This document shows, piece by piece, positions 16,211 to 35,210 of a DNA stretch of 42,848 nucleotides. The notes beneath the pieces are model-generated. The model made no database searches and was not told where the DNA came from. It saw only the letters and a program-made list of their open reading frames with translations. This DNA comes from a virus (taxonomy: Duplodnaviria; Heunggongvirae; Uroviricota; Caudoviricetes), in the IMG/VR virus record IMGVR_UViG_2563366985_000002, positions 1 to 42,848 of that record; one strand, given 5' to 3'. Positions within the stretch are counted from its first letter, which is position 1. Each line of letters starts with the position of its first letter. The position numbers and the translations under genes were made by a program.

Positions 16211-17549
16211 CATAAGCGCTAACTTAAGGGTTGAACCATCTGAAGAATGCGACGCCTCGGTGCCTCGTTAAGACGATGCCTCGCGTTCTTCAATTGCGTT
16301 TTGTAGGCTGTCAGGGATACTGTCCCACGAATGGCCACCTGTAAGCTCCAGATGACCATTTTTGTTATTCTCCACAACGAGTTAGTTCTTCTTTTCGGAT
16401 CCGGCACTTCTGGGGGGGAAATCCAGCGATGGCTGGATTATGTCGTCAATTAAAAATGCGGCGAGTAGATTAGCAAATATCCACGCTTTCGCGAGTTCAG
16501 GTTCCTTTGCACGCAAAGCATCCAGGTGCAGCAAACTTTTGAGCCGCTTAAAAGCCAGTTCAATTTGCCATCGCAGACGGTAACAATCAGCCACTTGCTC
16601 TGCTGAATATTCATCTTCCGGTAATGATGTTAGCAATAGCACATGGCCCGCTGCTTCCAGCGTTTCCGCCTGAACTACTCGTCCTTTTCGACGATTCTCG
16701 CTGAGCAGTCGGGTTTTACTGATTAATGCTTTTTCGGGAGGAAGTGATACGGCAATGAGACGTGCCGGAAAGGGAGCTCCGGCTTTTTTATTACCTGAAT
16801 TGCCTATCATTACAGTGGTTTCACCGTTCTTACCGCAATCCAGCCCGCGCAGAAAACCCATCATGTCAAAGCGCATTCCTTCTGCAGTTAACCAGCGCAA
16901 TCCTCGCCAGTGAACCCGGACGATATAATCAGCTTCTCCAAAAGCAAGTGAGCGGATACATTCGGGACGCGAACCGAATCCCCGGTCAGCAATGCGTATC
17001 TCGTCTGCCGTTTGCGCAAATCGGTCCAGCCGTTCAGCGTCTCTGCTGTCGGTTAGCTCAAAATCAGTGAACTGACAGGTATGAGGATCATATCCCATAT
17101 GTAGTCGCCATTCAGCGCTGCCGCCCCCGGGCGCACTGATTGCTGTTCCATCGACAAGACGCAATCTCTTTCCGCTTGTACAACCCGTAACTGCGGCGCG
17201 TACAGCAAGTGTTTGTGCGGCAAGTATGCCAAACCAGTCGGCGGCATTCCGCAGCCGCTTCAGGAGAGCCACGTCAGATAATGTTGCAACGTCATGGAGC
17301 TGAGCCCATGCAGTGACTTCACGTAATGACATCCCCCCGGGGCCGTAAGCCAGCCCCAGACGTAGCAGAGTTGCAGCATCACGAATTTCGCGGCGGCGGG
17401 TTAGAGCCCCGGCATTACGTGCCGAAGTATCCAGTTCTTCGGGCTTACCAATATGGGCCAGAATTGCTGACCAGTTATCGTGAGAGTAATTCATCGGCAC
17501 GTTAAATCATATCAGGCGTAATACCACAACCCTTAAGTTAGCGCTTATG
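16211..17549 (-). mobile_element. IS186 (IS4 family), complete copy
   Basis: 23-bp perfect terminal inverted repeats CATAAGCGCTAACTTAAGGGTTG at 16211-16233 and reverse-complemented at 17527-17549; encloses the transposase ORF; flanked by a 10-bp direct repeat. Confidence 0.85.
16382..17500 (-). CDS. insL: IS186 transposase
   Basis: 372-aa ORF (start possibly 2 codons in, at MNYSHDNW) recognised as IS186 InsL transposase. Confidence 0.9.
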   Translation of the reverse strand: MPMNYSHDNWSAILAHIGKPEELDTSARNAGALTRRREIRDAATLLRLGLAYGPGGMSLREVTAWAQLHDVATLSDVALLKRLRNAADWFGILAAQTLAVRAAVTGCTSGKRLRLVDGTAISAPGGGSAEWRLHMGYDPHTCQFTDFELTDSRDAERLDRFAQTADEIRIADRGFGSRPECIRSLAFGEADYIVRVHWRGLRWLTAEGMRFDMMGFLRGLDCGKNGETTVMIGNSGNKKAGAPFPARLIAVSLPPEKALISKTRLLSENRRKGRVVQAETLEAAGHVLLLTSLPEDEYSAEQVADCYRLRWQIELAFKRLKSLLHLDALRAKEPELAKAWIFANLLAAFLIDDIIQPSLDFPPRSAGSEKKN

Positions 17550-21316: not shown

Positions 21317-21777
21317 ACAGAGTAACCGCGATTATCTCCGCTCTGGTTATCTGCATCATCGTCTGCCTGTCATGGGCTGTTAATCATTACCGTGATAACG
21401 CCATTACCTACAAAGCCCAGCGCGACAAAAATGCCAGAGAACTGAAGCTGGCGAACGCGGCAATTACTGACATGCAGATGCGTCAGCGTGATGTTGCTGC
21501 GCTCGATGCAAAATACACGAAGGAGTTAGCTGATGCGAAAGCTGAAAATGATGCTCTGCGTGATGATGTTGCCGCTGGTCGTCGTCGGTTGCACATCAAA
21601 GCAGTCTGTCAGTCAGTGCGTGAAGCCACCACCGCCTCCGGCGTGGATAATGCAGCCTCCCCCCGACTGGCAGACACCGCTGAACGGGATTATTTCACCC
21701 TCCGGGAACGACTGGTAATGATGCAGGCCCAACTTGAAGGTGCTCAGCAATACATAACCGAACAGTGTTTAAAGTAA
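21313..21777 (+). CDS. Rz i-spanin
   Basis: N-terminal TM segment then coiled-coil-like periplasmic domain; ATGA overlap with endolysin stop; contains the embedded Rz1 frame. Confidence 0.8.
21533..21718 (+). CDS. Rz1 o-spanin lipoprotein (embedded in the +1 frame of Rz)
   Basis: 61 aa; signal peptide with lipobox LVVVGC and proline-rich mature region ([15 protein letters not shown]). Confidence 0.75.
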
Positions 21778-21914
21778 AATCTTAACTACAATATGATTCA
21801 TTTTGATGATTGTTTCATAAGGAACAGTGAAGTAAGATCTAAGAGGAGTTAAATTTTATACAGTATAATCATAATATTGCAGCAAGGTGGTTATAATTGA
21901 AAGAATATTTAGAT

Positions 21915-23372
21915 ATGAATACATCTCATGTAAGAGTTGTTACTCATATGTGTGGGTTCCTGGTTTGGCTCTATAGTCTTTCAATGTTGCCACCAATGGT
22001 TGTAGCATTGTTTTATAAAGAAAAAAGCCTGTTCGTTTTCTTTATAACTTTCGTTATATTTTTTTGCATTGGTGGCGGAGCGTGGTATACAACTAAGAAA
22101 TCTGGCATTCAATTACGTACCCGTGATGGGTTTATTATAATTGTAATGTTTTGGATTTTGTTTTCTGTTATTAGTGCATTCCCTTTATGGATTGACTCAG
22201 AACTTAATTTAACGTTCATTGATGCTCTGTTTGAAGGGGTTTCTGGAATAACAACAACAGGAGCAACTGTAATTGATGATGTTAGTTCATTACCTCGGGC
22301 ATATTTGTACTATCGGTCACAGTTAAATTTTATAGGTGGTTTAGGAGTTATTGTTCTGGCGGTTGCTGTATTGCCATTATTGGGTATTGGTGGTGCAAAG
22401 CTTTATCAGTCAGAAATGCCGGGGCCATTTAAGGATGACAAACTCACTCCCCGCCTGGCCGATACGTCACGGACACTGTGGATAACTTATTCTTTATTAG
22501 GTATTGCTTGTATTGTCTGTTATAGACTTGCAGGAATGCCTTTGTTTGATGCTATTTGTCACGGGATTTCCACAGTTTCGCTTGGTGGTTTCTCAACTCA
22601 TAGCGAGAGTATCGGATATTTTAATAACTATTTGGTTGAGCTGGTGGCTGGTTCTTTTTCCCTGCTATCGGCTTTCAACTTCACTCTTTGGTATATTGTT
22701 ATTAGCAGGAAAACGATAAAACCTTTAATCAGAGATATTGAACTTCGTTTCTTTCTGTTAATAGCCTTAGGGGTGATCATTGTTACCTCTTTCCAGGTCT
22801 GGCATATAGGTATGTATGACTTGCATGGAAGTTTTATTCATTCGTTTTTTCTTGCCAGCTCCATGCTCACTGATAATGGTTTAGCTACGCAGGATTATGC
22901 AAACTGGCCCACGCACACGATAGTGTTTTTGCTGTTGTCAAGTTTCTTTGGGGGATGTATAGGTTCAACTTGTGGTGGAATTAAGTCACTTCGATTTCTT
23001 ATACTTTTCAAACAAAGCAAACACGAGATAAATCAGCTTTCTCATCCCAGAGCGTTGTTGAGTGTAAATGTAGGAGGGAAGATAGTTACAGATCGTGTAA
23101 TGAGGTCTGTATGGAGTTTCTTTTTTCTTTATACTCTCTTCACGGTGTTTTTTATACTGGTGTTAAATGGTATGGGATATGATTTTCTTACATCATTTGC
23201 AACAGTGGCTGCATGTATTAATAATATGGGATTAGGTTTTGGGGCTACTGCATCGTCATTCGGAGTGCTTAATGACATTGCAAAATATTTAATGTGCATA
23301 GCTATGATTCTTGGTCGCCTTGAAATTTATCCTGTTATTATATTGTTTTCAGGTTTTTTTTGGCGCTCCTAA
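21915..23372 (+). CDS. trkG: TrkG potassium uptake protein (TrkH family)
   Basis: 485-aa polytopic membrane protein from MNTSHVRVVTHMCGF...; recognised as Rac TrkG; AT-rich gene. Confidence 0.9.
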   Translation: MNTSHVRVVTHMCGFLVWLYSLSMLPPMVVALFYKEKSLFVFFITFVIFFCIGGGAWYTTKKSGIQLRTRDGFIIIVMFWILFSVISAFPLWIDSELNLTFIDALFEGVSGITTTGATVIDDVSSLPRAYLYYRSQLNFIGGLGVIVLAVAVLPLLGIGGAKLYQSEMPGPFKDDKLTPRLADTSRTLWITYSLLGIACIVCYRLAGMPLFDAICHGISTVSLGGFSTHSESIGYFNNYLVELVAGSFSLLSAFNFTLWYIVISRKTIKPLIRDIELRFFLLIALGVIIVTSFQVWHIGMYDLHGSFIHSFFLASSMLTDNGLATQDYANWPTHTIVFLLLSSFFGGCIGSTCGGIKSLRFLILFKQSKHEINQLSHPRALLSVNVGGKIVTDRVMRSVWSFFFLYTLFTVFFILVLNGMGYDFLTSFATVAACINNMGLGFGATASSFGVLNDIAKYLMCIAMILGRLEIYPVIILFSGFFWRS

Positions 23373-23509
23373 TATATGGCTGATTTATAATTGTGAGTTT
23401 AATATTATATTGACTCACTCATTGATCCAATACCTAACTTTACCAGCAACACCTCCGCCCCCAGTAGCACTGGCTGCTGGGGTGCGTTTTATTCATAAAG
23501 CAAGGCTGT

Positions 23510-24298
23510 ATGAGCGAGAAATTAAAGATAGTCTATCGCCCATTACAAGAATTGTCACCGTATGCGCACAACGCCAGGACGCACAGTACTGAGCAGGTGG
23601 CACAACTGGTAGAAAGTATTAAGCAATTCGGCTGGACTAATCCGGTGCTGATTGACGAAAAGGGCGAAATTATTGCGGGTCACGGTCGTGTTATGGCGGC
23701 TGAAATGCTCAAAATGGATTCTGTTCCGGTCATTGTTCTGTCTGGCCTGACGGATGAGCAGAAAAAGGCGTACCGCCTGGCAGATAATCGCCTACCGATG
23801 AATGCTGGCTGGGATGAAGATCTATTGCGGATGGAGCTGTCGGACCTAATCAATGCTGATTTTGATGTCTCCCTGACAGGCTTCGGCCCGACAGAAATTG
23901 ATGAACTGTTGACGGATGTTTTGCCCGGTACAGGAAATAAGGAGGAGCCGTATACGACGAAAATTGATACGCCTGTTTATGAGCCGTCGGGCGGTAAACC
24001 GGATATCAGTGAACTGTACGACGATACGAAAACTCAGGAGCTGATCAGCCGGATACGTTCGGCGTCCCTTGATCCTGATATTGAGAAATTCCTCCTGTGT
24101 GCGGCAGAACGTCACACGGTGTTTAATTTCAGCAGAATTGCGGACTATTACGCTCATGCCCCCGCTGAAATTCAGTGCCTTTTCGAGGAGTCGGCGCTGG
24201 TGATCATTGATTATCAGCAGGCTATTGAAAATGGATTTGTCCGAATGACGCAGCGCATGGTGGCGATCATGCATAGCGGGGAGGAGGAATATGCGTGA
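23510..24298 (+). CDS. ParB-like nuclease domain protein (YnaK-like, full length)
   Basis: 262 aa; N-terminal ParB/Srx-like segment (NPVLIDEKGEIIAGHGRVMAA); sits just upstream of the packaging genes. Confidence 0.65.
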   Translation: MSEKLKIVYRPLQELSPYAHNARTHSTEQVAQLVESIKQFGWTNPVLIDEKGEIIAGHGRVMAAEMLKMDSVPVIVLSGLTDEQKKAYRLADNRLPMNAGWDEDLLRMELSDLINADFDVSLTGFGPTEIDELLTDVLPGTGNKEEPYTTKIDTPVYEPSGGKPDISELYDDTKTQELISRIRSASLDPDIEKFLLCAAERHTVFNFSRIADYYAHAPAEIQCLFEESALVIIDYQQAIENGFVRMTQRMVAIMHSGEEEYA

Positions 24299-25223
24299 TG
24301 ATTTTTGCGCCTTTATTCTGACTCACGGGCGACCGGACAAAGTTCTGACTTACCGGACGTTGCGTCGTGCTGGCTATACCGGGAAAATTTTTATCGTTGT
24401 TGATGATGAAGATAAGACACGGCATCAGTACATGGCTGAATTTGGTGAACAGGTGCTGGTATTTTCCAAAGCCGATATTGCCAGTCGTTTTGACGAAGCC
24501 GATAATTTTGGTGACCGCCGCTCAATTTTTTACGCCCGTAATGCCTGTTTCGACCTGGCAAAACTGGTCGGGTGTAAATACTTCATTCAGCTCGATGATG
24601 ATTATCACGAGTTCCAGTTTCGGGTGGATCGCAACTATGACCAGGCCTATTTCCCGATAAGGAAACTGGATGCGATCCTTTCTGAAATGCTGGCGTATTA
24701 CGAATCAATACCCGCGCTTTCCATCGCTATGTCGCAGGGCGGGGATTTTCTTGGTGACAATGGCGGCCATGCTTCGTGGGTGAAACGCAAGGCAATGAAC
24801 AGCTTTATCTGTTCGGTTGATCGACCGTTCTCATTCATGGGGCGCATTAACGAGGATGTGAATACGTACACGAATCTCGGTCGCTGTGGTGAATTGTTTA
24901 TGACGATCGGTGCTGTCCAGTTAGGGCAGAAACAGACGCAGAAAAACAGCGGCGGAATGACCGAGCTGTATCTGGATTCCGGAACCTACGTTAAAAGTTT
25001 TTACTCCGTCATGTATGCGCCGTCGTGCGTAAAAATCTCACTGATGGGTGCCAGCCATAAACGCATTCACCATCAGGTCACCTGGAACAACGCTGCAGTA
25101 AAAATCCTTCACGAAAAATACAGGAAGAAGACACCCTGCATATCAATGGGGGTGACAAATGATTCCGTATTCGAAAGTCGAGTCTCTGGCAGCGTGCCGG
25201 ATGACTGCACAACAAATCGCTGA
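24291..25223 (+). CDS. Hypothetical protein (YdaY-like) with DDD acidic motif
   Basis: 310-aa ORF with strong GGAGGAGG Shine-Dalgarno; FIQLDDDYHEF motif reminiscent of a DxD nucleotide-sugar transferase site; 3' end uncertain because it overlaps the next ORF. Confidence 0.5.
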   Translation: MRDDFCAFILTHGRPDKVLTYRTLRRAGYTGKIFIVVDDEDKTRHQYMAEFGEQVLVFSKADIASRFDEADNFGDRRSIFYARNACFDLAKLVGCKYFIQLDDDYHEFQFRVDRNYDQAYFPIRKLDAILSEMLAYYESIPALSIAMSQGGDFLGDNGGHASWVKRKAMNSFICSVDRPFSFMGRINEDVNTYTNLGRCGELFMTIGAVQLGQKQTQKNSGGMTELYLDSGTYVKSFYSVMYAPSCVKISLMGASHKRIHHQVTWNNAAVKILHEKYRKKTPCISMGVTNDSVFESRVSGSVPDDCTTNR

Positions 25224-25410
25224 CGTTCTGGATGTTGATCTGAACCGACTGAAAGAAAATCGGGAAGCAATGACAGATTTTTATGCGGCCATCCGTAAGG
25301 GCAGAGCGAAAGGTGAAGCCGAGTTACGAGCGGCATTGTTTAAGCTTGCCAGAAAAGGGGATGCCTTTGCTCTGCGCGAACTACTCAGGGTGGATAAAAA
25401 TCAGGACTAA
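25159..25410 (+). CDS. Small HTH-like protein upstream of terminase (possible packaging accessory)
   Basis: 83-aa ORF with GGGGGTGA Shine-Dalgarno; overlaps the 3' end of the preceding ORF in another frame. Confidence 0.4.
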   Translation: MIPYSKVESLAACRMTAQQIADVLDVDLNRLKENREAMTDFYAAIRKGRAKGEAELRAALFKLARKGDAFALRELLRVDKNQD

Positions 25411-25413
25411 CTG

Positions 25414-26508
25414 ATGAGCAGACCGGACTGGGGGGCGTTGCAGCAGGAGTATATTGCTGAATACACCCGCTCCGGTATATCTCCGGTGGCATGGTGTGAA
25501 GCAAGGGGACTGAACTACGCAACAGCCCGTCGTTACATCAAAAAAACTCCGAAAAATGCGCAGAAAGAAATGCGCAAAACTGCGCAAAAAAGTGCGCGAA
25601 AAAAAACTGCGCAGACTGCGCAAAGGCAGAACGGAAAATCTCAGAAAAAAAAGGCTGTATCCGATGCACTCCTGATTGAGGGGGACACGGAAGAAATTTC
25701 GTTCTGCCCCGATGAATTCGGTATTTCTGACCAGCAGGCAAAATTCGCCATGTTGGTTGCTCAGGGGAAAAAGCCGACAGAGGCATACCGACTGGCTGGT
25801 TATGAGGGGCAAGGTGCGACAGCTAACAGCAACGCCAGCCGTATGCTTAGAAATGCCAGGGTTTATCGTGCTATCAGCTACTTCCGCAATCAGTACCAGA
25901 AACGCTATACCGCAGACCTGGATTTACTGGTGAGCCAGTTGATGGCCATTGTCCAGGCCGACCCCAATCAGTTGGCACAATTTCGCCGTGTTAACTGCCG
26001 TTATTGCTGGGGCGAGAATCATCTCTACCAGTGGCGTGATATTGCAGAATTCGATAAGGCTGCGGCACAGGCCTCCAGAGATGGTAAACCCGAGCCGGAA
26101 TATGGAGGCCTCGGCTTTGTTGATAACGCCATACCCAATCCGGATTGCCCGAAGTGCTGCGGTGAGGGAACGGGACAGCTTTATATGGCTGATACCACAC
26201 TGCTTGATGGGGATGCGCGGCAATTATATGCAGGGTCAAAGCTCGGAAAATACGGTGTTGAGATCCTGCTGGAGGATAAGGCTGCCGCCCGGCGTGAATT
26301 GTTGCGTTTGCTTTCTGCTGGCGGGGCATTATGTGCAGATAAACGGCTACAGGAACTGGAAATTGAACGGCGCAGAATAGAAAACCAGAAGCTGCGCAAA
26401 GAGATCGAAACGGTGGAGGATAATGAACATCCCCAGCCTGTGGCGATCAATATTAATGTGGTTGATGCCAGATTAAGGAGTGATGAAGATGATCTCTCCG
26501 ACGCTTAA
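25414..26508 (+). CDS. Terminase small subunit (putative)
   Basis: 364-aa ORF immediately upstream of and overlapping the large terminase; basic N-terminal region; contains a cluster of TGCGCA repeats. Confidence 0.55.
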   Translation: MSRPDWGALQQEYIAEYTRSGISPVAWCEARGLNYATARRYIKKTPKNAQKEMRKTAQKSARKKTAQTAQRQNGKSQKKKAVSDALLIEGDTEEISFCPDEFGISDQQAKFAMLVAQGKKPTEAYRLAGYEGQGATANSNASRMLRNARVYRAISYFRNQYQKRYTADLDLLVSQLMAIVQADPNQLAQFRRVNCRYCWGENHLYQWRDIAEFDKAAAQASRDGKPEPEYGGLGFVDNAIPNPDCPKCCGEGTGQLYMADTTLLDGDARQLYAGSKLGKYGVEILLEDKAAARRELLRLLSAGGALCADKRLQELEIERRRIENQKLRKEIETVEDNEHPQPVAININVVDARLRSDEDDLSDA

Positions 26509-27790
26509 TGTGCCTCAGGCGCGATTTCTTTCAATGCCCCATAAATTTAAAGCCTATATTGCTGGTTTTGGCTCGGGCAAAACATGGGTTGGGTGTGGCG
26601 GCATATGCAAGGGGATTTGGGAGCATCCAGGTATAAATCAGGGATATTTTGCGCCAACGTATCCCCAAATTCGCGATATTTTTTACCCTACAGTGGAAGA
26701 AGTTGCTGCTGACTGGGGATTGAACGTAAAAATTAATGAGGGAAATAAAGAGGTTCACTTTTATTACGGACGCCAGTATCGGGGAACCACTATCTGCAGA
26801 TCGATGGAGAAGCCACAAACGATCGTCGGTTTCAAAATTGGTAATGCGCTGGTGGATGAACTGGATATTTTGCCGAAGGAAAAAGCCAGAACGGCGTGGC
26901 GCAAGATAATTGCGCGTATGCGTTATAAGATTGATGGACTTCGCAACGGTATTGACGTTACAACCACGCCGGAAGGATTCAAATTTGTCTACGAGCAGTT
27001 TGTTAAAGCCGTGCGTGAAAAAACAGAGCTGGCCTCACTGTATGGTCTGGTGCAGGCATCTACTTTCGATAATGAAAAGAACCTGCCAGCAGATTACATT
27101 CCTTCACTTCTTGAATCATACCCTCCAGGGTTGATTAAAGCCTATCTTCTAGGACGGTTTACTAACCTGACAAGTGGTACTGTTTACCATCAGTTTGACC
27201 GGAAACTGAATAATTGCGAAGAAGTGGAGCAGCCAGGGGAGCCGATTTATATTGGGATGGATTTTAACGTTGGAAAGATGGCGGGAATCGTCCATGTGCT
27301 GCGTTTGGGGCTTCCATGTGCGGTAACTGAAATCATCAATGCCTACGATACGCCGGATATGATCCGCCTCATTAAAGAACGCTTCTGGCCGTATGACGGG
27401 CATGATTACCGGAAAGTGAGGGAGATTTATATTTATCCAGATGCTTCCGGAGATTCCAGAAAATCAAGTAACGCAAGTACGACGGATATAGCCCAGCTTA
27501 AGCAGGCAGGTTTTAACGTTGTGGTGAACAGCTCGAACCCGCCAGTAAAAGATCGCGTTAACTCAATGAATGCAATGTTCTGCAATGCCAATGGTGAGCG
27601 TCGCTATAAAGTTAATGTGAAGCGTTGTCCGGTATATGCCGAATCTCTGGAGCAACAGGTCTGGGATGATAAGGGGGAGCCTGATAAAAAATCTGGCAAT
27701 GATCACCCGAATGATGCCGGAGGTTATTTCATCGTTAAGCAATTCCCTATTGTCAAACCGACCGGAAGAGTCACATCACTTCGGATTTAA
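26480..27790 (+). CDS. Terminase large subunit
   Basis: 436 aa with Walker A-like GFGSGKT and nuclease-like C-terminal region; precedes portal. Confidence 0.85.
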   Translation: MMKMISPTLNVPQARFLSMPHKFKAYIAGFGSGKTWVGCGGICKGIWEHPGINQGYFAPTYPQIRDIFYPTVEEVAADWGLNVKINEGNKEVHFYYGRQYRGTTICRSMEKPQTIVGFKIGNALVDELDILPKEKARTAWRKIIARMRYKIDGLRNGIDVTTTPEGFKFVYEQFVKAVREKTELASLYGLVQASTFDNEKNLPADYIPSLLESYPPGLIKAYLLGRFTNLTSGTVYHQFDRKLNNCEEVEQPGEPIYIGMDFNVGKMAGIVHVLRLGLPCAVTEIINAYDTPDMIRLIKERFWPYDGHDYRKVREIYIYPDASGDSRKSSNASTTDIAQLKQAGFNVVVNSSNPPVKDRVNSMNAMFCNANGERRYKVNVKRCPVYAESLEQQVWDDKGEPDKKSGNDHPNDAGGYFIVKQFPIVKPTGRVTSLRI

Positions 27791-27792
27791 TT

Positions 27793-29199
27793 ATGGCTGA
27801 TATATCAACACCCAACCTCGACTATAACGATATGCTGGAGGCGTGGGATATTAACGACGCATTGATGGGCGGTACGCTTGAAATGCGCAGGCAGGGGGAA
27901 AATTATCTCCCCAAATGGCCTAATGAAGATGAAGACGCTTATAAAAAACGCCTGTCTGTGGCTACGCTACTTCCTGTGTATGAAGAAAGCATCAAACAAA
28001 ATATTGGGCGCATATTTGCAGAGCCGACAGTATTGAGTGAGGAAACGCCGGAAAAAATCAGGGAATATGCAGAAAATATCGACATGGAGGGGAGCCGACT
28101 GGATGTGTGGGCGCAGCAATTTTTCAGTCTCGCATTTCAGTATGGTGTGGCACATGCGCTGGTGGACTATCCACGAACGGATATGAACGAGATTCGGACA
28201 AAAGCCGATGAAAACGCGGCCGGTGGTCGCCCGTACGTTACGATGCTGAATCCACGCCAGGTTATTGGATGGAAATCGAAAGTTGAAAAAGGGAAAGTTG
28301 TTCTCACTGATTTGCGTATAAAAGAGGTCATCATTATTGATGGTGATGATTTCGGGCAGAAGAAGGTGGAGCAGATCCGCCATATTATGCCCCGTCGAGT
28401 AGAAATTTATCGACGCAGCGAAGGTACTAATGGCGAATCTGTCTGGATGCTTCATGAGTCATGGAATACCAGCCGTGATGATATTCCTCTGGTAACACTG
28501 TATACGAAGAAAACAGGGTTTATGCGTGGTACACCGCCATTGCTTAATCTTGGCTTGCTGAATATCAAGCACTGGCAAAGCCAGAGCGAGCAGGACAATA
28601 TTCTTCATGTTGCCCGCGTTCCATTGCTGGTGGCCTACGGGCTGGACAGGAATGAAGAACTGACGGTTGGTGCATCCACCGCTACGATTTTTGAGGACAG
28701 AACAAAAAATGGCCTCGAATATGTTGAACATAGTGGCGCAGCGATAGAATCTGGCGAAACATCACTTGAGAAGCTGGAAAATCAGATGCGTCATGCCGGC
28801 GCTAAACTTCTGCGGGCTGAAAATACATCCACCAAATCTGTTGATCAGACTAATGAAGAGCGGATGCAGGAACACTCGCCGCTTTATACAATGGCGAACT
28901 CCCTCGAAGATGCCCTCGATAATATTCTCCAGATAATGGCGGAATGGAGCGGAGAGAGTTGCGGTGGCAATGTGGATGTGCGCACTGAACTGGATGTATC
29001 TGCCCAGGTGTTTGACTCATCCTCCGCGCTGGCTGTTCAGTCATTGCGTCAGGGCGGTGATATACGTCAGATTGATGCGGTTCGGGTGTTGCAGGCGTTG
29101 AAATTTATCGATCAGGATTCCCGTCCAGAGGAAGTGATCGATGAATTAAAAAATCAGAGTGTAATGCTGATGGAAATCAATGATGCAAACCGTGAATGA
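27793..29199 (+). CDS. Portal protein
   Basis: 468-aa ORF directly after terminase, typical order and size. Confidence 0.8.
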   Translation: MADISTPNLDYNDMLEAWDINDALMGGTLEMRRQGENYLPKWPNEDEDAYKKRLSVATLLPVYEESIKQNIGRIFAEPTVLSEETPEKIREYAENIDMEGSRLDVWAQQFFSLAFQYGVAHALVDYPRTDMNEIRTKADENAAGGRPYVTMLNPRQVIGWKSKVEKGKVVLTDLRIKEVIIIDGDDFGQKKVEQIRHIMPRRVEIYRRSEGTNGESVWMLHESWNTSRDDIPLVTLYTKKTGFMRGTPPLLNLGLLNIKHWQSQSEQDNILHVARVPLLVAYGLDRNEELTVGASTATIFEDRTKNGLEYVEHSGAAIESGETSLEKLENQMRHAGAKLLRAENTSTKSVDQTNEERMQEHSPLYTMANSLEDALDNILQIMAEWSGESCGGNVDVRTELDVSAQVFDSSSALAVQSLRQGGDIRQIDAVRVLQALKFIDQDSRPEEVIDELKNQSVMLMEINDANRE

Positions 29200-30295
29200 A
29201 CGGCTGCGTGATGAATCAATTGCTCATGCAGTCTGGATATCCCGCTATAGCACTGGTGTGGCTGCCAGAATGGTGAAAATACTGAATGACAGCGATGCGG
29301 AGCTTACAGCTCGCCTGCTGGTAGCACTGGACAGCCTCGATCCTGGTAGTTTTACCGTTACGCGCCTGGAGTCACTTCTGGCGAGTGTCAGAGAGGTTAA
29401 CCGCGCTGCTATTAACAGCATGTTTACCAGTCTCTCCGGAGAGCTGAACGAGCTGGCAATTTATGAGGCTGGTTATCAGTTAAGTCTGTTTGATTCTCTG
29501 CTACCTGATTTTGTTGCTGATGTTCACCCTCTGGTTGGTATATCTTCTGATGCACTTTACGCCGCTGCAATGGCGCGACCATTCCAGGGACGACTGCTCA
29601 GTGAGTGGGCCTTGGATCTTGAGGCGGATCGGCTCAGACGCATAACAAATACGGTGCGTCAGGGTTTTTTGCTGGGGGATACCAATGAGCAGATCGCAAG
29701 AAAAATTCGGGGACATGTCAGCAAGGGATTTCAGGATGGTGCATTGCAGATGAGCCGGGCTAATGCGGCCAGCATTGCAAAAACAGCGGTTGGACATCTT
29801 GCTGCTACTGCCCGTGAGAGTTTTGCCAGCGCGAATAATGATTTGATTAAGGGTAAGCAATGGTTATCAACGCTTGATAATCGTACTACGCCACAATGTC
29901 GAATCAGGGATCGCCTCAAATATACGCTGGATAATAAACCTGTAGGTCACAGTGTGCCTTATTTGCATGGGCCGGGAAAAATTCATTTCTGCTGCCGCTC
30001 AACGGAAACGTTCATTCTGAAATCAGCGAAGGAACTGGGTATTGATGTTCGTGATATTTCCCCGGCTGAGCGGGCCAGCATGGATGGCGTGGTGGCCGGA
30101 GATACAACCTACAGGGAATGGTTTTTGCGTCAGCCTTACACCAGACAAAAACAGATTGTGGGGGAAACCCGGGCAAAGCTGATTCGGGATGGCGGTATGT
30201 CGCCAGATGAATTTTACACCGATAAAGGCGAATGGCTGACGCTGAAGCAACTCCGTGAGCGTGATGCACAGGTATTCAGAAAAGCAGGGATTTAA
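29180..30295 (+). CDS. Head morphogenesis / minor head protein (Mu F-like)
   Basis: 371-aa ORF following portal with overlap; C-terminal region typical of phage minor head proteins. Confidence 0.7.
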   Translation: MMQTVNERLRDESIAHAVWISRYSTGVAARMVKILNDSDAELTARLLVALDSLDPGSFTVTRLESLLASVREVNRAAINSMFTSLSGELNELAIYEAGYQLSLFDSLLPDFVADVHPLVGISSDALYAAAMARPFQGRLLSEWALDLEADRLRRITNTVRQGFLLGDTNEQIARKIRGHVSKGFQDGALQMSRANAASIAKTAVGHLAATARESFASANNDLIKGKQWLSTLDNRTTPQCRIRDRLKYTLDNKPVGHSVPYLHGPGKIHFCCRSTETFILKSAKELGIDVRDISPAERASMDGVVAGDTTYREWFLRQPYTRQKQIVGETRAKLIRDGGMSPDEFYTDKGEWLTLKQLRERDAQVFRKAGI

Positions 30296-30315
30296 ATAAA
30301 TCATTTATTACAACA

Positions 30316-30340
30316 GGCTACCTTCGGGTGGCCTTTTTTA
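30316..30340 (+). terminator. Intrinsic terminator-like hairpin
   Basis: GGCTACC-ttcg-GGTGGCC (one mismatch) followed by TTTTTT. Confidence 0.45.
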
Positions 30341-30399
30341 TTGCTGCGATCCGGATGGTGAGCAGCGTAACTGTCGGAAGACTTAAACCAGGTACTAAT

Positions 30400-31164
30400 A
30401 TGAAACTGAAAACGGTCGAGATTAACGGAAAACAATACGCAGAAATTGATACTGCTGGCCTGCCAGTTTATGTGCACGACGATGGTAAAGAAATCGGCTT
30501 CGATGCACCGCTGGCGATAAAAAAAATTACAGAGCTTAATGGCGAGGCAAAAAATCATCGCCTGGCTAAAGAAGCTGCAGAGGAAAAACTGGCTAAGTTT
30601 GCCGCTATCGAAGACCCGAAGAAGGCGATCGAGGCACTGGAAATGCTGTCAAAAATCGACCAGAAAAAGCTGATCGATGCGGGACAGGTTGACCAGGTTA
30701 AGGCAGAAATTACGAAAAATTTTCAGCAGCAATTAGATGAAGAAAAGCAACGCTCTCAGATGCTGGAGACGCAGCTTTACGATTCTATGATTGGCGGTAG
30801 TTTTGCGGGTTCAAAATATATTGCCGATAAAATTGCGATCCCGGCAGATTTATTACAAGCCCGCTTCGGGCAGGCATTCAAAGTGGAAGAAGGGAAGATC
30901 GTTGCTTATGACGCTTCCGGCAACAAAATTTATTCCCGCGCGAAGCCTGGCGAACTGGCGCAGTTTGATGAGGCGCTGGAGTTCCTCGTCGAAAATTACC
31001 CTCAGAAAGACTACATCCTGAAAGCCAGTGGCAACAATGGCGGCGGCTCCCGTCCGACACAGCATGATGTTGGTCAGAAAACGATGAAACGCTCTGCTTT
31101 TGATGCACTGGATGTTGCAGGTAAGCAAAACGCATTGAAAGACGGTATCACAATTGTTGATTAA
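30400..31164 (+). CDS. Scaffolding-like protein
   Basis: Acidic, helix-rich ORF between head morphogenesis and capsid genes; start placed at MKLKTVEING because the longer ORF would begin inside the upstream hairpin. Confidence 0.5.
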   Translation: MKLKTVEINGKQYAEIDTAGLPVYVHDDGKEIGFDAPLAIKKITELNGEAKNHRLAKEAAEEKLAKFAAIEDPKKAIEALEMLSKIDQKKLIDAGQVDQVKAEITKNFQQQLDEEKQRSQMLETQLYDSMIGGSFAGSKYIADKIAIPADLLQARFGQAFKVEEGKIVAYDASGNKIYSRAKPGELAQFDEALEFLVENYPQKDYILKASGNNGGGSRPTQHDVGQKTMKRSAFDALDVAGKQNALKDGITIVD

Positions 31165-31262
31165 CACATTTGTCAGCTTCCGGATGGGAGCTGGTGTCAG
31201 GGCTGGATAGCTCATTACTCCATCTATTCACAATTACGCAAATTTTTAAGGAATATTTAATT

Positions 31263-32402
31263 ATGGCTGGAAATACCCTGACCGGGTTGATCCCGACTAT
31301 TTATACCGCCCTGGATATTGTATCCCGTGAGCAGGTAGGTTTTATCCCTGCGGTAGCAAAAAACGCAAAAGCTGACGCCGCAGCAAAAGATCAGACGGTA
31401 ACCGCGCCAGTTGCGCCTGAGGCGAAAACCGAAGATATCGTACCGGGGCCGTCAGCTCCGAATACCGGTGATCAAAATATTGGCACTGTTGATGTGAAAA
31501 TTACTAAATCCAAAATGGCACCGGTTAAATGGAATGGTGAAGAACAACTGGCTCTTGGCCCTTCAGGGACTTACAACACCATTCTGGCTGATCAGTTCAA
31601 GCAGGCTTTTCGCGCCCTTGCAAACGAGGTTGAGGCTGATCTTGGTGCGTTGTATTTCGGTGCTTCCCGCGCCGTGGGAACCGCAGGGACAACGCCGTTT
31701 GGTGTTAAAGATGATCTTTCTGATGCTGCTCTGGCTCGTCAGGTTCTGGAGGATAACGGCGCACCGACAACCGATCTGCAGATGGTGCTTGGCTCCACTG
31801 CCATTGCTAATTTGCGCGGAAAACAGTCTGTACTGTTTAAAGTGAATGAATCCGGCACTGAACAGCTACTGCGTGAGGGCGTGTTGGGGCGTCTGGAGGG
31901 ATTCAATATTCACAGTTCGGCAGGTGTAAAACGAGCGCCAAAGGTTGCTGCAACTGGTTATCTCGTGAATGGCGAGAAAAAAGAAGGCGATGTTCTTATT
32001 TCCATTGATACTGGTTCGGGGAGTATTTCTGCAGGTCAGATTGTTACGTTCGCTGGCGATCCGAATCAGTATGTTGTGGCAGCAGCGACCAGCAATCTGA
32101 TTACTCTTGCAGCGCCCGGACTGCGTCAGGATCTGGCCGATGATACTGCAATCACAGTTGTTGGCTCCTTTACTGCAAATATGGCGTTTGATCGCAACGC
32201 GTTTCTGCTGGCATCCCGTACTCCGGCAATGCCGGAAGGTGGCGATAATGCTGATGATGTAATGAATGTTACGGACCCGATTTCAGGGATTACGTTCCAG
32301 ATTGCACTGTATCGTCAGTATCGCCAGGTGCGCTATGAAGTTGGACTGGCATGGGGTGTTTCATCAGTGAAGCCGGCACATGGTTGTCTGATTCTTGGTT
32401 AA
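31263..32402 (+). CDS. Major capsid protein
   Basis: ORF from MAGNTLTGLIPTIY... with AAGGAA Shine-Dalgarno; followed by a strong terminator, as typical for coat genes. Confidence 0.75.
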   Translation: MAGNTLTGLIPTIYTALDIVSREQVGFIPAVAKNAKADAAAKDQTVTAPVAPEAKTEDIVPGPSAPNTGDQNIGTVDVKITKSKMAPVKWNGEEQLALGPSGTYNTILADQFKQAFRALANEVEADLGALYFGASRAVGTAGTTPFGVKDDLSDAALARQVLEDNGAPTTDLQMVLGSTAIANLRGKQSVLFKVNESGTEQLLREGVLGRLEGFNIHSSAGVKRAPKVAATGYLVNGEKKEGDVLISIDTGSGSISAGQIVTFAGDPNQYVVAAATSNLITLAAPGLRQDLADDTAITVVGSFTANMAFDRNAFLLASRTPAMPEGGDNADDVMNVTDPISGITFQIALYRQYRQVRYEVGLAWGVSSVKPAHGCLILG

Positions 32403-32412
32403 ACATTCAAAC

Positions 32413-32433
32413 GGGGCTTCGGCCCCATTTTTA
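32413..32433 (+). terminator. Intrinsic terminator after capsid gene
   Basis: GGGGC-ttcg-GCCCC hairpin followed by ATTTTTA. Confidence 0.55.
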
Positions 32434-32444
32434 ATGGGGGGCAT

Positions 32445-32621
32445 ATGGCCGGATTAACTAAAGAGCAAAGAGCACAGCGTGAAGCCGCACAAAAAACGCA
32501 AATTGAGTTAGTGGTTATGGTGACCGATTATCAGATGTTTCCCGGCGCACCAACTATCGCTAATGTTCATCCTGATGAAGTTGACAACTGGAAGGCTATG
32601 GGCTGGAAAACTCAGGAGTAA
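32445..32621 (+). CDS. Small hypothetical protein (58 aa)
   Basis: Hand-translated MAGLTKEQRAQREAAQKTQIELVVMVTDYQMFPGAPTIANVHPDEVDNWKAMGWKTQE; G-rich Shine-Dalgarno; fills the gap between capsid and connector genes. Confidence 0.35.
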   Translation: MAGLTKEQRAQREAAQKTQIELVVMVTDYQMFPGAPTIANVHPDEVDNWKAMGWKTQE

Positions 32622-32624
32622 CAC

Positions 32625-33020
32625 ATGATCACTTACGTGACCTGTGATGACGTTGATAATGCGTTTGGGAACGCCTGGACGAGTGAGAACGCTAAAAATA
32701 AAGCTGTTTTAATGGCTAATGCCTGGCTTAATGGCTTCAACCTGAAAATTAACCCATCCCGTATTCCGGAAGAGGTAAAACTTGCGGGAGCATATGCAGC
32801 CAGAATTGCCTCATTCGGTAAGTTGTTTCAGCAGAAAAATGATTCTGGCGTTGTTATCAGTAAAGCCGTGTCGGCTGACGGGGTCAGTGTATCGAAATCA
32901 TTTTCTGAGTTGCCAGCAAACAGCACTGCATTGCTTGAACCCGATTTACAGCTTGCGATAGCACTGCTGAAACCGTACGGACTTAGTCGCTCACAAGTCA
33001 GGGTTGTGAGGGGGGGATAA
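32625..33020 (+). CDS. Head-tail connector / DNA-packaging protein (gp6-like)
   Basis: 131-aa ORF in a tightly packed head-completion gene series; assignment positional. Confidence 0.5.
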   Translation: MITYVTCDDVDNAFGNAWTSENAKNKAVLMANAWLNGFNLKINPSRIPEEVKLAGAYAARIASFGKLFQQKNDSGVVISKAVSADGVSVSKSFSELPANSTALLEPDLQLAIALLKPYGLSRSQVRVVRGG

Positions 33021-33403
33021 TGGGGCTTCGTGAAGAGATTCAGTCAGAGGTTGCCGCTGCTTTTGATGAGGATTTAGCGGACGCCGTGAGTGATTTTTCT
33101 GGTTCTTACGTTACGCACCGGCACTGGGATCCTGTGACGGAAACTGGCGGCGAATCCACCGAAATCTATACCGGGCGAGGCGTGTTGACACGTTATAAGC
33201 TGGGCAGAATTGATGGGATTAATATTTTGCATGGTGACCTTAAATTAACCGCTCTGGTATGCGAGGTTACGGATAAACCAGCTGTCGACCATATTATTGA
33301 GATTTATGATCCTGTATCAAGGCAGTTACAACGATACGAGGTAATTACAGCAAGTGTAGATCCTTCCGCATCAGTTTACTCTATCCAGTTAAGGAGAGCG
33401 TAA
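33020..33403 (+). CDS. Head-tail adaptor / head completion protein
   Basis: 127-aa ORF with ATGG overlap with the previous gene; assignment positional. Confidence 0.5.
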   Translation: MGLREEIQSEVAAAFDEDLADAVSDFSGSYVTHRHWDPVTETGGESTEIYTGRGVLTRYKLGRIDGINILHGDLKLTALVCEVTDKPAVDHIIEIYDPVSRQLQRYEVITASVDPSASVYSIQLRRA

Positions 33404-33784
33404 ATGGCAAAGGCATGGGATATAGAACCGTCAATATTTGCCGGGATGATTGAGGAAGATGTAGGGCTGAAGATTCGCTACATCGCTATTCAGATTCTTA
33501 CTGCTATTGATATTGCTGCTCCGGTTGATACCGGACGTTTCAGAAATAACAACCTGGTGTCGTTACAGCATCCCGATTTTGGTATATCTGATAACGTGGA
33601 TCCGAACGGTACGATTGCTGTTCAGCGTGGGATCGGGGTTATTTCGAAAGCTGCAAATTACGGAGTTATTTATATCCAGAATAACCTTCCTTATGCAGAG
33701 GCTCTTGAAAACGGTCATTCACAACAAGCGCCAACTGGCGTGTATGCCAACGCTTTTCATGGTGTTTTACAGGCTTACAAATGA
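33404..33784 (+). CDS. Neck/tail completion protein (HK97 gp10-like, tentative)
   Basis: 126-aa ORF in the head-tail joining series. Confidence 0.45.
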   Translation: MAKAWDIEPSIFAGMIEEDVGLKIRYIAIQILTAIDIAAPVDTGRFRNNNLVSLQHPDFGISDNVDPNGTIAVQRGIGVISKAANYGVIYIQNNLPYAEALENGHSQQAPTGVYANAFHGVLQAYK

Positions 33785-34173
33785 CGTTTACTGAAATCAG
33801 AAATACGGTTATTTCCAGAATGACGGCACAGACGATTATTGATGGAAAAGACGTATTGTATCCGAACGCGCCAACGTTCGATCCTTCCGGTAAGTTAATC
33901 TGGGCGCGGTTAAGTAATATTCCCGGGCAGGCTGGAGTTAATGAAATTGGCGCGGGGCCGATTGTTTATCGCACGGGGATAATCATTATTCAGTTATTTG
34001 TCCCCGCAGGTTCTGGTTCAAAACTCATTACTGAGACAGCCGATAAATTGCGGGAACTGTTTGAGTTTCAGGATGACGATCGTCTCAGTTACCAGGCTGT
34101 TTCCTCAATAGCCGTTGGCGAAAAGAATGGCTGGTTCCAGCTTAATCTTCAAATTCCATATCGCGCGCTCTAG
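33781..34173 (+). CDS. Tail terminator-like protein
   Basis: 130-aa ORF immediately upstream of the major tail gene; overlaps the previous gene. Confidence 0.45.
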   Translation: MTFTEIRNTVISRMTAQTIIDGKDVLYPNAPTFDPSGKLIWARLSNIPGQAGVNEIGAGPIVYRTGIIIIQLFVPAGSGSKLITETADKLRELFEFQDDDRLSYQAVSSIAVGEKNGWFQLNLQIPYRAL

Positions 34174-34199
34174 CGCAATTAATGACATAGGAGGCTCCT

Positions 34200-35162: not shown

Positions 35163-35210
35163 TTTTCCGTTATTCCTCCTGTGGTACTGCCCTACAGGGG
35201 GACGCATTGA

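What the first reader, a model, noticed from the sequence alone, without database searches (positions are those of the whole stretch)
23510..25223. ParB-like nuclease and an unknown 310-aa protein just upstream of the terminase genes, full length here
The corresponding Rac genes in K-12 (ynaK, ydaY) are fragments as I recall; here both look intact and translationally coupled through an ATG...TGA overlap. ParB-like nuclease domains next to terminase genes are often fused or paired with DNA-modification enzymes. The 310-aa protein has a DDD motif in a context reminiscent of a DxD transferase, suggesting a possible DNA-modification or anti-restriction function, which would be notable beside a GmrSD-like enzyme in the same prophage.
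Basis: inference. Interest (0 to 1): 0.5.

Follow-up and report, generated by a model that had tools for sequence, protein, structure and literature searches.

The report
Phage glycosyltransferase with ParB-like partner
Two overlapping late genes of a Rac-like E. coli prophage encode a sugar-transferring enzyme of the family that phages use to glycosylate DNA and a ParB-like partner protein; the pair recurs next to DNA-packaging genes in phages of bacteria and archaea, yet it lacks the enzyme that normally prepares DNA for sugar attachment, so its target is unknown.

Summary
Both ORFs are real and intact: 23510-24298 (262 aa) and 24291-25223 (310 aa), joined by an 8-nt ATGCGTGA overlap.

- **The 310-aa protein** is not unknown. 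It is a GT-A glycosyltransferase of Pfam PF20691 (TET-associated glycosyltransferase, E 5.5e-35).
- **The 262-aa protein** has a ParB/Srx-fold N-domain of the type fused to phage DNA methyltransferases. It also has an unannotated C-terminal domain (CTD, aa ~146-250).
- **K-12 comparison:** ynaK is the first ~85 codons of the ParB-like gene. The glycosyltransferase is deleted outright. ydaY is a tail gene 11.6 kb downstream.

Across 96 non-redundant relatives, from Enterobacteria to a haloarchaeal virus, 94 keep a CTD-bearing gene just upstream of the glycosyltransferase. The other two are cut by contig ends. The start/stop overlap is nearly always kept, and a terminase usually follows. At least 10 loci, and 191-kb Vibrio phages, keep only the CTD, so the CTD is the conserved partner.

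No TET/JBP or hydroxymethylase accompanies the pair. My best reading (about 0.5) is DNA glycosylation before packaging on an unidentified acceptor. Protein glycosylation is the main rival. I file it as a new variant of a known kind, testable in E. coli.

The parts
23459..23482 (+). Terminator-like hairpin (10 bp stem, 7 G-C pairs, followed by TGCGTTTTAT) that closes the trkG insert just upstream of the pair
   Evidence: No strong promoter lies between it and 23510, so I infer the pair is read as part of the Q-antiterminated late transcript.
23510..24298 (+). Partner protein, 262 aa (annotated ynaK, 'ParB/Srx family N-terminal domain-containing protein')
   Evidence: (phrog_620, E 3e-90, full length)
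23510..23932 (+). ParB/Srx-fold nucleotide-binding domain plus helical segment (aa 1-141). It carries Box II-like AGHGR (R60) and Box III-like DN (D92-N93).
23951..24259 (+). Family-specific C-terminal domain (CTD, aa ~148-250). It has the YTxKIxxPxYEP motif and invariant R201-H202, Y214, E226 and D234. It is the conserved partner of the glycosyltransferase.
   Evidence: No Pfam, PDB or fold match. 1192 clusters at 50% identity, nearly all ~260 aa with the CTD at the C-terminus. Stand-alone CTD proteins precede the glycosyltransferase in Vibrio phage pv27 (57% identity, E 6e-40) and in at least 10 other loci.
24280..24298 (+). Translational coupling site: Shine-Dalgarno GGAGGAGG, the ATG of the glycosyltransferase (24291), and the TGA of the partner (24296-24298)
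   Evidence: An equivalent stop/start overlap lies within 40 nt in 91 of 94 non-redundant loci.
24291..25223 (+). GT-A fold glycosyltransferase of the TAGT family, 310 aa. Homologs are ~287 aa. The last ~25 aa here are not conserved and overlap the next gene.
24594..24602 (+). DDD (D102-D104), the DxD metal and nucleotide-sugar motif at the end of strand 97-102
   Evidence: Invariant. Secondary structure. Corresponds to the 'R...DDD...EDY/F' motif set described for phage GT-A DNA glycosyltransferases (bioRxiv 10.1101/2023.12.21.572611); here R14, DDD, and E188-D189-V190.
25159..25410 (+). Small ORF, 83 aa (PGAP calls 25201-25410), directly after the glycosyltransferase. It resembles part of a small terminase subunit.
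   Evidence: phrog_309, E 8e-23. A homolog sits in the same position in 29 of 96 non-redundant loci. It probably belongs to the packaging lineage rather than to the module.
25414..27790 (+). Small terminase (25414-26508) and large terminase (26480-27790), the constant downstream neighbours
   Evidence: In 72 related loci with a large ORF downstream, about 70 of those ORFs are large terminases, from four Pfam families.

Best explanation
The two genes form a self-contained, translationally coupled phage module.

Shown:
- The 310-aa protein is a GT-A fold, DxD-type glycosyltransferase of the TET-associated glycosyltransferase family.
- Its upstream neighbour has a ParB/Srx-fold nucleotide-binding domain of the type fused to phage DNA methyltransferases, plus a family-specific C-terminal domain.
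- That C-terminal domain is the conserved partner of the enzyme.

Inferred:
- The pair is made late, from the Q-antiterminated transcript that also encodes terminase.
- The C-terminal domain binds and activates or completes the glycosyltransferase.
- The ParB-like domain holds the complex on replicated phage DNA.
- The enzyme transfers a sugar from a host nucleotide-sugar onto phage DNA shortly before or during packaging, changing how host nucleases see that DNA.

The acceptor is not identified. No enzyme that makes 5-hydroxymethyl-cytosine or -uracil is present. The chemistry would therefore have to differ from every characterised member of the family. If it does not, the target is not DNA.
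For: Identity of the enzyme:
- PF20691, E 5.5e-35, and phrog_842, E 9e-104.
- GT-A fold.
- Invariant DDD and ED motifs.

Link to DNA:
- Characterised family members act on DNA bases or on sugars already attached to DNA (PMC13216743; bioRxiv 10.1101/2023.12.21.572611).
- The partner's N-module is the one fused to DNA methyltransferases (phrog_498 3.7e-51, PADLOC MTase_II 1e-38).
- A ParB-like protein with the same nucleotide-binding-domain plus C-terminal-domain layout is experimentally required by a phage DNA thymine dioxygenase on double-stranded DNA (PMC13229309).
- About 70 of 72 related loci have a large terminase just downstream, from four different terminase families.
- In Vibrio phage pv27 the CTD-only partner and the glycosyltransferase sit among primase, exonuclease and helicase genes.

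Obligate pairing:
- 94 of 96 non-redundant glycosyltransferase loci have the CTD gene upstream. The other two are cut by contig ends.
- 91 of 94 keep the stop/start overlap.
- 73 of 78 CTD-centred loci have the glycosyltransferase immediately after.

Universal acceptor:
- The enzyme keeps 41-48% identity between E. coli, Lactobacillus and Nocardia phages and a haloarchaeal virus. These phages share no common virion or cell-surface chemistry.

Pathway character:
- Some loci insert tailoring or donor-synthesis genes between the two. These are a phosphatase + nucleotidyltransferase (once fused to the partner), a second TAGT fused to a methyltransferase, or a methyltransferase alone.
Against: - No TET/JBP dioxygenase, hydroxymethylase or DNA methyltransferase was found in this prophage.
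- None is annotated in the complete 31.8-kb genome of Lactobacillus phage c5.
- None recurs among 150 upstream neighbours from diverse loci.
- Canonical DNA has no hydroxyl on its bases, and no glycosyltransferase is known to act on an unmodified base.
- GREB1, a eukaryotic member of the family, O-GlcNAcylates a protein (PMC7968844).
- This prophage also carries a GmrSD-type enzyme. That would be hazardous if its own DNA carried a glucosyl-hmC-like adduct.
- No published or computed evidence shows that virion DNA of any phage carrying this pair is modified.
- The model is poor for the C-terminal third of the enzyme and for the CTD, so no DNA-binding surface could be examined.
Confidence: 0.5

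Rival explanations
1. The enzyme glycosylates a protein, not DNA. The most economical target is its own partner: the invariant tyrosines of the YTxKIxxPxYEP motif, as glycogenin glucosylates its own tyrosine. A universal host protein is another possibility. The ParB-like domain would then only localise or time the reaction.
For: - GREB1, which carries a TAGT domain, O-GlcNAcylates ER-alpha (PMC7968844).
- The only protein constantly present with the enzyme is the CTD partner.
- Its motif has invariant Y148, Y157 and E158 and lies in a low-confidence, probably flexible stretch.
- The absence of any hydroxymethyl-pyrimidine source fits a non-DNA acceptor.
Against: - The partner's N-module is the one fused to DNA methyltransferases.
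- The pair sits next to terminase or replication genes.
- Virion proteins cannot be a common target, because the phages differ in terminase family and morphology.
- A conserved flexible motif is equally well explained as a docking strand.
- Glycogenin is only one of many GT-A fold matches.
Confidence: 0.22
2. The enzyme acts on another universal molecule, such as RNA, a nucleotide, or a nucleotide-derived immune signal. Alternatively it drains or rewires a nucleotide-sugar pool, as a counter-defence or metabolic takeover function.
For: - Conservation across bacterial phyla and archaea requires a universal acceptor.
- Some loci add a phosphatase + nucleotidyltransferase, once fused to the partner. 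This points to nucleotide-linked substrates.
- ParB/Srx-fold proteins include small-molecule kinases: SerK, SbnI and sulfiredoxin.
Against: - No precedent exists in this glycosyltransferase family.
- The added nucleotidyltransferase is more simply a donor-synthesis enzyme.
- There is no match to any PADLOC defence model other than the methyltransferase N-module.
- Expression from the late transcript would be late for a counter-defence role.
Confidence: 0.12
3. The ParB-like protein is a packaging accessory, for example a pac/cos-site binder or nuclease comparable to the HNH proteins next to terminases, or a plasmid-type partition protein. The glycosyltransferase would then be an unrelated passenger, for example a cell-surface converting enzyme.
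For: - The position is directly upstream of terminase.
- The historical name of the domain is 'ParB-like nuclease'.
Against: - The two genes are coupled in 91 of 94 loci and never occur apart where sequence is available.
- The ParB domain is missing altogether in at least 10 loci, and in Vibrio phages where the pair is not near terminase.
- No ParA gene is annotated in the near-identical prophage, and no helix-turn-helix domain was detected in the protein.
- The prophage is integrated, so it does not need partition.
- A surface polymer cannot be shared by E. coli, Lactobacillus, Nocardia and Haloarcula.
Confidence: 0.04

Closest known systems
T2/T6 beta-glucosyl-HMC-alpha-glucosyltransferase (the biochemically characterised PF20691 member) and the 'solitary TAGT' phages noted in PMC13216743
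   Same: Same Pfam family and PHROG, with a GT-A fold and DxD motif. PMC13216743 reports that 288 of 753 TAGT-encoding phage genomes lack alpha- and beta-glucosyltransferases and calls their function undefined. This prophage belongs to that group.
   Different: The T-even enzyme adds a second glucose to alpha-glucosyl-5hmC. It needs dCMP hydroxymethylase and alpha-glucosyltransferase, neither of which is here. It is too distant to appear in a tblastn search at 1e-5. The sources I read do not report a CTD partner for it.
Phage 5mYOX (TET/JBP)-associated GT-A glycosyltransferases (Burke 2021, PMC8256090; Pyle 2024, bioRxiv 10.1101/2023.12.21.572611) and trypanosome base-J glucosyltransferase
   Same: GT-A fold, R...DDD...ED motif set, post-replicative action on DNA polymers, and frequent ParB and terminase neighbours.
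   Different: Those enzymes glycosylate 5hmC or 5hmU made by an adjacent methyltransferase + dioxygenase, or by a ThyS homolog. Here no such enzyme is in the prophage or recurs in 150 neighbours of related loci. The third motif reads EDV, not EDY/F.
ParB-dependent phage thymine dioxygenases (5mYOX176/ParB176; PMC13229309)
   Same: A ParB-like protein with a nucleotide-binding domain, a linker and a C-terminal domain but no DNA-binding helix-turn-helix. It is encoded next to a DNA-modifying enzyme that it activates on double-stranded DNA.
   Different: The client enzyme here is a glycosyltransferase, not a dioxygenase. Activation is inferred, not shown. Whether the two C-terminal domains are homologous was not tested. 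Here the nucleotide-binding domain can be lost entirely.
ParB-N / DNA methyltransferase fusion proteins of phages and prophages (phrog_498; PADLOC MTase_II; surveyed in PMC12704722)
   Same: A homologous N-terminal ParB module (E 3.7e-51 and 1e-38). From my own knowledge, not tested here, these fusions are also often encoded near the terminase genes.
   Different: The catalytic partner here is a separate, translationally coupled glycosyltransferase reached through a dedicated C-terminal domain, not a fused methyltransferase.
GREB1 (eukaryotic TAGT-domain protein; PMC7968844)
   Same: Same glycosyltransferase domain family. PGAP names the E. coli protein 'GREB1-related'.
   Different: GREB1 is a large cytoplasmic protein that O-GlcNAcylates ER-alpha. 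It has no ParB or CTD partner and no phage context.

Membership tests
TAGT / PF20691 glycosyltransferases | Sequence match to the family model above the curated threshold | tested here: met
   121.6 bits against a cut-off of 27.5, E 5.5e-35, covering model positions 4-205 of 205. phrog_842, E 9e-104.
TAGT / PF20691 glycosyltransferases | GT-A fold with DxD and the R...DDD...ED(Y/F) active-site motifs | tested here: met
TAGT / PF20691 glycosyltransferases | Genomic association with a TET/JBP dioxygenase or a ThyS-type hydroxymethylase that supplies 5hmC or 5hmU | tested here: not met
   None found in the window or the near-identical prophage. None annotated in the complete phage c5 genome. None recurs among 150 neighbours. 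The ThyS of Vibrio phage pv27 is a true thymidylate synthase; only 61 kb of pv27's 191 kb were read.
TAGT / PF20691 glycosyltransferases | Transfer of a sugar to a DNA base or to a DNA-linked sugar | not testable with these tools
   Requires nucleoside mass spectrometry or an enzyme assay.
T2/T6 beta-glucosyl-HMC-alpha-glucosyltransferase (the PHROG name) | Co-occurrence with dCMP hydroxymethylase and alpha-glucosyltransferase, which provide the alpha-glucosyl-5hmC acceptor | tested here: not met
   Neither gene is in the prophage. No T-even phage appears among tblastn hits at 1e-5. The PHROG name should not be transferred.
ParB partition proteins (ParABS) | ParB/Srx-fold N-terminal nucleotide-binding domain with a Box II arginine and Box III asparagine | tested here: met
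ParB partition proteins (ParABS) | Helix-turn-helix parS-binding domain, an adjacent ParA ATPase, and a replicon that needs partition | tested here: not met
   No HTH or ParB dimerisation Pfam domain. TIGR00180 scores 38.1 against a cut-off of 58.45. No ParA in the annotated prophage. The element is integrated next to intR.
ParB-like activators of DNA-modifying enzymes (as ParB176 for 5mYOX176) | Layout of nucleotide-binding domain, linker and C-terminal domain without a DNA-binding domain, encoded next to the client enzyme | tested here: met
   Model and alignments. Adjacency in 94 of 96 loci.
ParB-like activators of DNA-modifying enzymes (as ParB176 for 5mYOX176) | Client enzyme activity depends on the ParB-like protein | not testable with these tools
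   Requires co-expression or reconstitution. Structure prediction of the complex was not available.

The most novel reading that the evidence does not exclude
The glycosyltransferase and its CTD partner form a two-subunit enzyme that attaches a sugar directly to an unmodified component of DNA, with no prior hydroxymethylation. The acceptor could be an exocyclic amine of a canonical base or the backbone. That would be a kind of DNA modification not yet described. It would be carried by thousands of temperate phages of bacteria and archaea, including about one in six sequenced E. coli.
Probability: 0.2. Interest if true: 0.9.

Novelty: new variant of a known kind. Interest (0 to 1): 0.6.

Why it matters
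Recent work on phage DNA glycosylation left an explicit gap. About 65% of contigs carrying phage-type glycosyltransferases have no neighbouring base-modifying enzyme (bioRxiv 10.1101/2023.12.21.572611). Also, 288 of 753 TAGT-encoding phages have a 'solitary' TAGT of undefined function (PMC13216743).

This locus puts such a solitary enzyme in a genetically tractable host. It is an inducible Rac-like prophage, and 867 of 5426 complete E. coli genomes hold at least 80% of the 2.2-kb region. K-12 is a natural deletion.

The comparative analysis adds three things that I did not find in the papers available to me:
- The enzyme always comes with a dedicated ~100-residue partner domain.
- The ParB domain is optional.
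- The pair travels without any precursor-making enzyme.

If the target is DNA, this is new chemistry and a new anti-restriction strategy, and it could confound sequencing-based methylome studies. If the target is a protein, it redefines what this 'DNA glycosyltransferase' family does in phages.

Tried and rejected
Searches that gave nothing useful:
- A literature search for 'ynaK' returned only noise.
- The 2013 paper that defined TAGT (Iyer et al., NAR 41:7635) is not in the library. I therefore could not check whether it already describes the ParB-TAGT pair. Later papers cite it only for the general idea that ParB directs modification enzymes during packaging (PMC8256090, PMC13229309).
- Sequence and profile searches of the PDB found nothing for the enzyme or the CTD.
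- NCBIfam has no model for either protein.

Ideas considered and dropped:
- ParB-glycosyltransferase fusion proteins: none in 165 loci.
- Partition system: rejected. No ParA is annotated in the near-identical prophage, no HTH domain was detected, and the element is integrated.
- Defence system: rejected. PADLOC matches only the methyltransferase N-module.
- Cell-surface conversion: rejected, because the enzyme is 41-48% identical across hosts with unrelated envelopes.
- The PHROG name 'beta-glucosyl-HMC-alpha-glucosyltransferase': rejected as a functional label.
- The GmrSD gene as a meaningful companion: dropped. It is missing from a prophage whose module region is 100% identical.

Limits:
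- Only 61 kb of the 191-kb Vibrio phage pv27 were read (1-50000 and 169955-180809). A hydroxymethylase elsewhere in that genome is not excluded.
- The Pfam summary for 150 neighbours lists only the 25 commonest families. A single TET/JBP hit among them could have gone unseen.
Full report
**1. What is in the sequence**

The two ORFs exist as described.
- ORF 23510-24298 encodes 262 aa.
- ORF 24291-25223 encodes 310 aa.
- They overlap by 8 nt (ATGCGTGA). A GGAGGAGG Shine-Dalgarno sequence sits just upstream of the second ATG.

The surroundings are as follows.
- Upstream lie the lysis genes and the trkG insert (21897-23372). A strong terminator-like hairpin closes that insert at 23459-23482.
- Downstream lie an 83-aa ORF (25159-25410), small terminase (25414-26508), large terminase (26480-27790) and portal (27793-29199).
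- The window is a Rac-like prophage running from intR to the tail genes.
- The 2.2-kb region occurs in 1619 of 5426 complete E. coli genomes, and 867 of them cover at least 80% of it.
It is absent from a prophage whose module region is 100% identical, so it is a variable accessory.

**2. The K-12 comparison**

BLAST of K-12 Rac against the window gives two collinear blocks: 21333-23763 and 35321-37080 (annotation). K-12 therefore has one deletion of window 23764-35320.
- ynaK is the first ~85 codons of the ParB-like gene.
- The 310-aa gene, both terminases, the portal, the head genes and the tail tube are all gone.
- ydaY is a tail-region gene. It lies between the tube and tape-measure genes in an intact relative.

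**3. The 310-aa protein**

It matches Pfam PF20691, the TET-associated glycosyltransferase (TAGT) family, at E 5.5e-35 over the whole model. It matches phrog_842 at E 9e-104. PGAP calls it 'GREB1-related protein'.

The AlphaFold model has mean pLDDT 70, and above 90 for most of residues 1-150.
- Its best matches among viral models are all TAGT-domain phage proteins.
- There is no solved structure for the family by sequence or profile.

It is invariant, together with R14, R83, E188-D189, Q217, K235, R258, H260-H261 and W265. This fits the 'R...DDD...EDY/F' motif set reported for phage GT-A DNA glycosyltransferases (bioRxiv 10.1101/2023.12.21.572611), except that the third motif reads EDV.

Homologs are ~287 aa long. 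The last ~25 residues of the E. coli protein are unconserved and overlap the next gene. Residues 223-282 are very conserved but lie outside the Pfam model.

**4. The 262-aa protein**

Residues 1-141 form a ParB/Srx-fold nucleotide-binding domain plus a short helical segment.
- PF02195 matches aa 23-90.
- Box II-like AGHGR and Box III-like DN are conserved.

The same module is the N-terminus of DNA methyltransferase models: phrog_498 at E 3.7e-51 and PADLOC MTase_II at E 1e-38.

There is no helix-turn-helix domain in the protein and no ParA gene annotated in the near-identical prophage. It is not a partition protein, and nothing supports the word 'nuclease'.

Residues ~146-250 form a second domain, here called the CTD.
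- It has no Pfam, PDB or fold match.
- It starts with a YTxKIxxPxYEP motif in a low-confidence stretch.
- It carries invariant polar residues R201-H202, Y214, E226 and D234.
- An exhaustive search finds 1192 clusters at 50% identity. Almost all are ~260 aa with the CTD at the C-terminus.

**5. The pair is a conserved module**

tblastn against phage genomes finds the same two overlapping genes in very different viruses:
- Lactobacillus gasseri phage phi jlb1;
- L. delbrueckii phages, such as c5, where they are ORF1 and ORF2 next to cos;
- Nocardia phage NTR1;
- Porphyromonas phages;
- the haloarchaeal virus HHTV-2.

The enzyme keeps 41-48% identity to the E. coli protein in the Lactobacillus gasseri, Nocardia and haloarchaeal examples.

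I collected 165 loci from viral contigs and from one genome per species. They represent 96 enzyme clusters at 90% identity and span many phyla.
- 94 of the 96 have a CTD-bearing gene directly upstream. The other two are cut by contig ends.
- In 91 of the 94 the stop and start lie within 40 nt, mostly overlapping by 8-14 nt.
- No fusion of the two proteins was seen.
- Searching from the CTD side, 73 of 78 loci have the enzyme immediately after.
- In 72 loci with a large ORF downstream, about 70 of those ORFs are large terminases. They come from four Pfam families: Terminase_6N 37, Terminase_3 24, TerL_ATPase 5 and GpA 4.

**6. The CTD, not the ParB domain, is the constant partner**

- In 191-kb Vibrio phages such as pv27, the gene before the enzyme encodes a 139-aa protein. 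It is 57% identical to residues 148-244 only (E 6e-40). There the pair sits among primase, exonuclease and helicase genes, not next to terminase.
- At least 10 further non-redundant loci have CTD-only partners of 131-148 aa. They have ample upstream DNA and no ParB domain anywhere in the locus.
- Nine long partners have only sub-threshold ParB_N similarity.

**7. No precursor-making enzyme, but occasional tailoring genes**

Every characterised DNA-acting member of this family uses 5-hydroxymethyl-cytosine or -uracil, or a sugar already attached to one. I found no TET/JBP dioxygenase, ThyS-type hydroxymethylase or DNA methyltransferase in three places:
- the window or its annotated near-twin;
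- the annotation of the complete 31.8-kb phage c5 genome;
- the recurrent families among 150 upstream neighbours of diverse loci. Only sporadic N6/N4 and C5 methyltransferases appear there.

The thymidylate synthase of pv27 is a genuine ThyA next to DHFR.

A few loci insert extra genes between partner and enzyme.
- Four loci carry a histidine-phosphatase + cytidylyltransferase-like protein. In a fifth locus it is fused to the ParB-CTD protein. The nearest models, all below cut-off, are CobC, TagD and RfaE domain II.
- One locus has a second TAGT fused to a SAM methyltransferase.
- One locus has a methyltransferase alone.

These look like donor-synthesis and glycan-tailoring steps. They mark the module as a modification pathway, but they do not reveal the acceptor.

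**8. Literature context**

- PF20691 includes the T2/T6 enzyme that adds a second glucose to glucosyl-hmC. 288 of 753 TAGT-encoding phages have a solitary TAGT of undefined function (PMC13216743).
- About 65% of contigs with phage-type glycosyltransferases have no neighbouring base-modifying enzyme (bioRxiv 10.1101/2023.12.21.572611).
- A ParB-like protein with a nucleotide-binding domain and a C-terminal domain, but no DNA-binding domain, is required by a phage thymine dioxygenase on double-stranded DNA. Mutating its nucleotide-binding residues had little effect (PMC13229309).
- ParB folds fused to methyltransferases are enriched in prophages (PMC12704722).
- ParB was proposed in 2013 to direct modification enzymes during packaging. 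I know this only as cited in PMC8256090, because the original paper is not held.
- GREB1, a TAGT-domain protein, glycosylates a protein (PMC7968844).

**9. Interpretation**

Shown:
- a DxD GT-A glycosyltransferase of the TAGT family;
- an obligate, translationally coupled partner whose CTD is the conserved element;
- a ParB module shared with DNA methyltransferases;
- a position beside packaging or replication genes;
- no precursor-making enzyme.

Inferred:
- The pair is expressed late.
- The CTD activates or completes the enzyme.
- The ParB domain tethers the complex to DNA.
- The sugar comes from a host nucleotide-sugar and goes to an acceptor common to bacteria and archaea.

DNA is the most likely acceptor (about 0.5), because every contextual clue points to DNA. 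It would need chemistry not known for this family.

The main rival is protein glycosylation, most simply of the partner's own conserved tyrosine motif (about 0.2). Other universal molecules remain possible (about 0.1). Packaging-accessory, partition or surface-conversion roles are essentially excluded by the neighbourhood statistics.

**10. Verdict**

The genes themselves are common and already named in databases. What is not ordinary is a TAGT enzyme that always travels with a dedicated partner domain and never with a hydroxymethyl-pyrimidine source. I rate it a new variant of a known kind, with interest 0.6. It turns an acknowledged open question into a simple E. coli experiment.

Noticed in passing
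window 23764-35320 (K-12 junction at L006 3630/3631): K-12 Rac differs from this prophage by a single 11.56-kb deletion that fuses codon ~85 of the ParB-like gene to the tail gene ydaY. Many database proteins are other fusions that begin with ~60-65% of the ParB-like protein and continue into Lom, large terminase, NlpC/P60 or tail-fibre domains. This suggests repeated deletions with one end inside this gene.
   Followed up: partly
window 12199-13881 (+): A GmrSD-family type IV restriction enzyme (PF03235 + PF07510; PADLOC HEC-06, E 4e-221) sits in the early region of the same prophage. It is absent from a prophage whose module region is 100% identical (L001). Whether it would cut DNA modified by the prophage's own glycosyltransferase is unknown.
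   Followed up: partly
window 25159-25410 (+): An 83-aa ORF overlaps the unconserved tail of the glycosyltransferase. It matches only the middle of a small-terminase PHROG (phrog_309, E 8e-23). A homolog sits directly after the glycosyltransferase in 29 of 96 non-redundant loci. A full 364-aa small terminase follows it here, so its role is unclear.
   Followed up: partly
L226 2942-3895; L240 4314-5309; L242 4332-5300; L245 4305-5291; L232 3566-5248: In some metagenomic phages a histidine-phosphatase + cytidylyltransferase-like protein is inserted between the ParB-CTD gene and the glycosyltransferase. In L232 it is fused to the ParB-CTD protein, giving 560 aa. The nearest models (CobC, TagD, RfaE domain II) all score below their cut-offs. 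It may make a special nucleotide-activated donor.
   Followed up: partly
L154 3581-5275; L156 5456-6719: Two other module variants. One has a second TAGT domain fused to a SAM methyltransferase between partner and glycosyltransferase (Hyphomonadaceae MAG). The other has a CTD-only partner, then a methyltransferase, then the glycosyltransferase (Verrucomicrobia MAG).
   Followed up: partly
L168 4459-5888 (Vibrio phage pv27) and five related 191-196 kb Vibrio phages: Large lytic Vibrio phages carry the glycosyltransferase, with a ~50-aa N-terminal extension, and a CTD-only partner among replication genes. Only 61 kb of the pv27 genome were read.
   Followed up: partly
window 16382-17500 (-): A DDE transposase (PF01609), probably an insertion sequence, lies in the region between the early genes and the antiterminator and lysis genes.
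   Followed up: no
L001 20211-20468: In some RefSeq records PGAP marks the intact 262-aa gene as a pseudogene ('ynaK, missing C-terminus'), although the module region is 100% identical to the window. I presume this is because the truncated K-12 YnaK serves as the reference.
   Followed up: no
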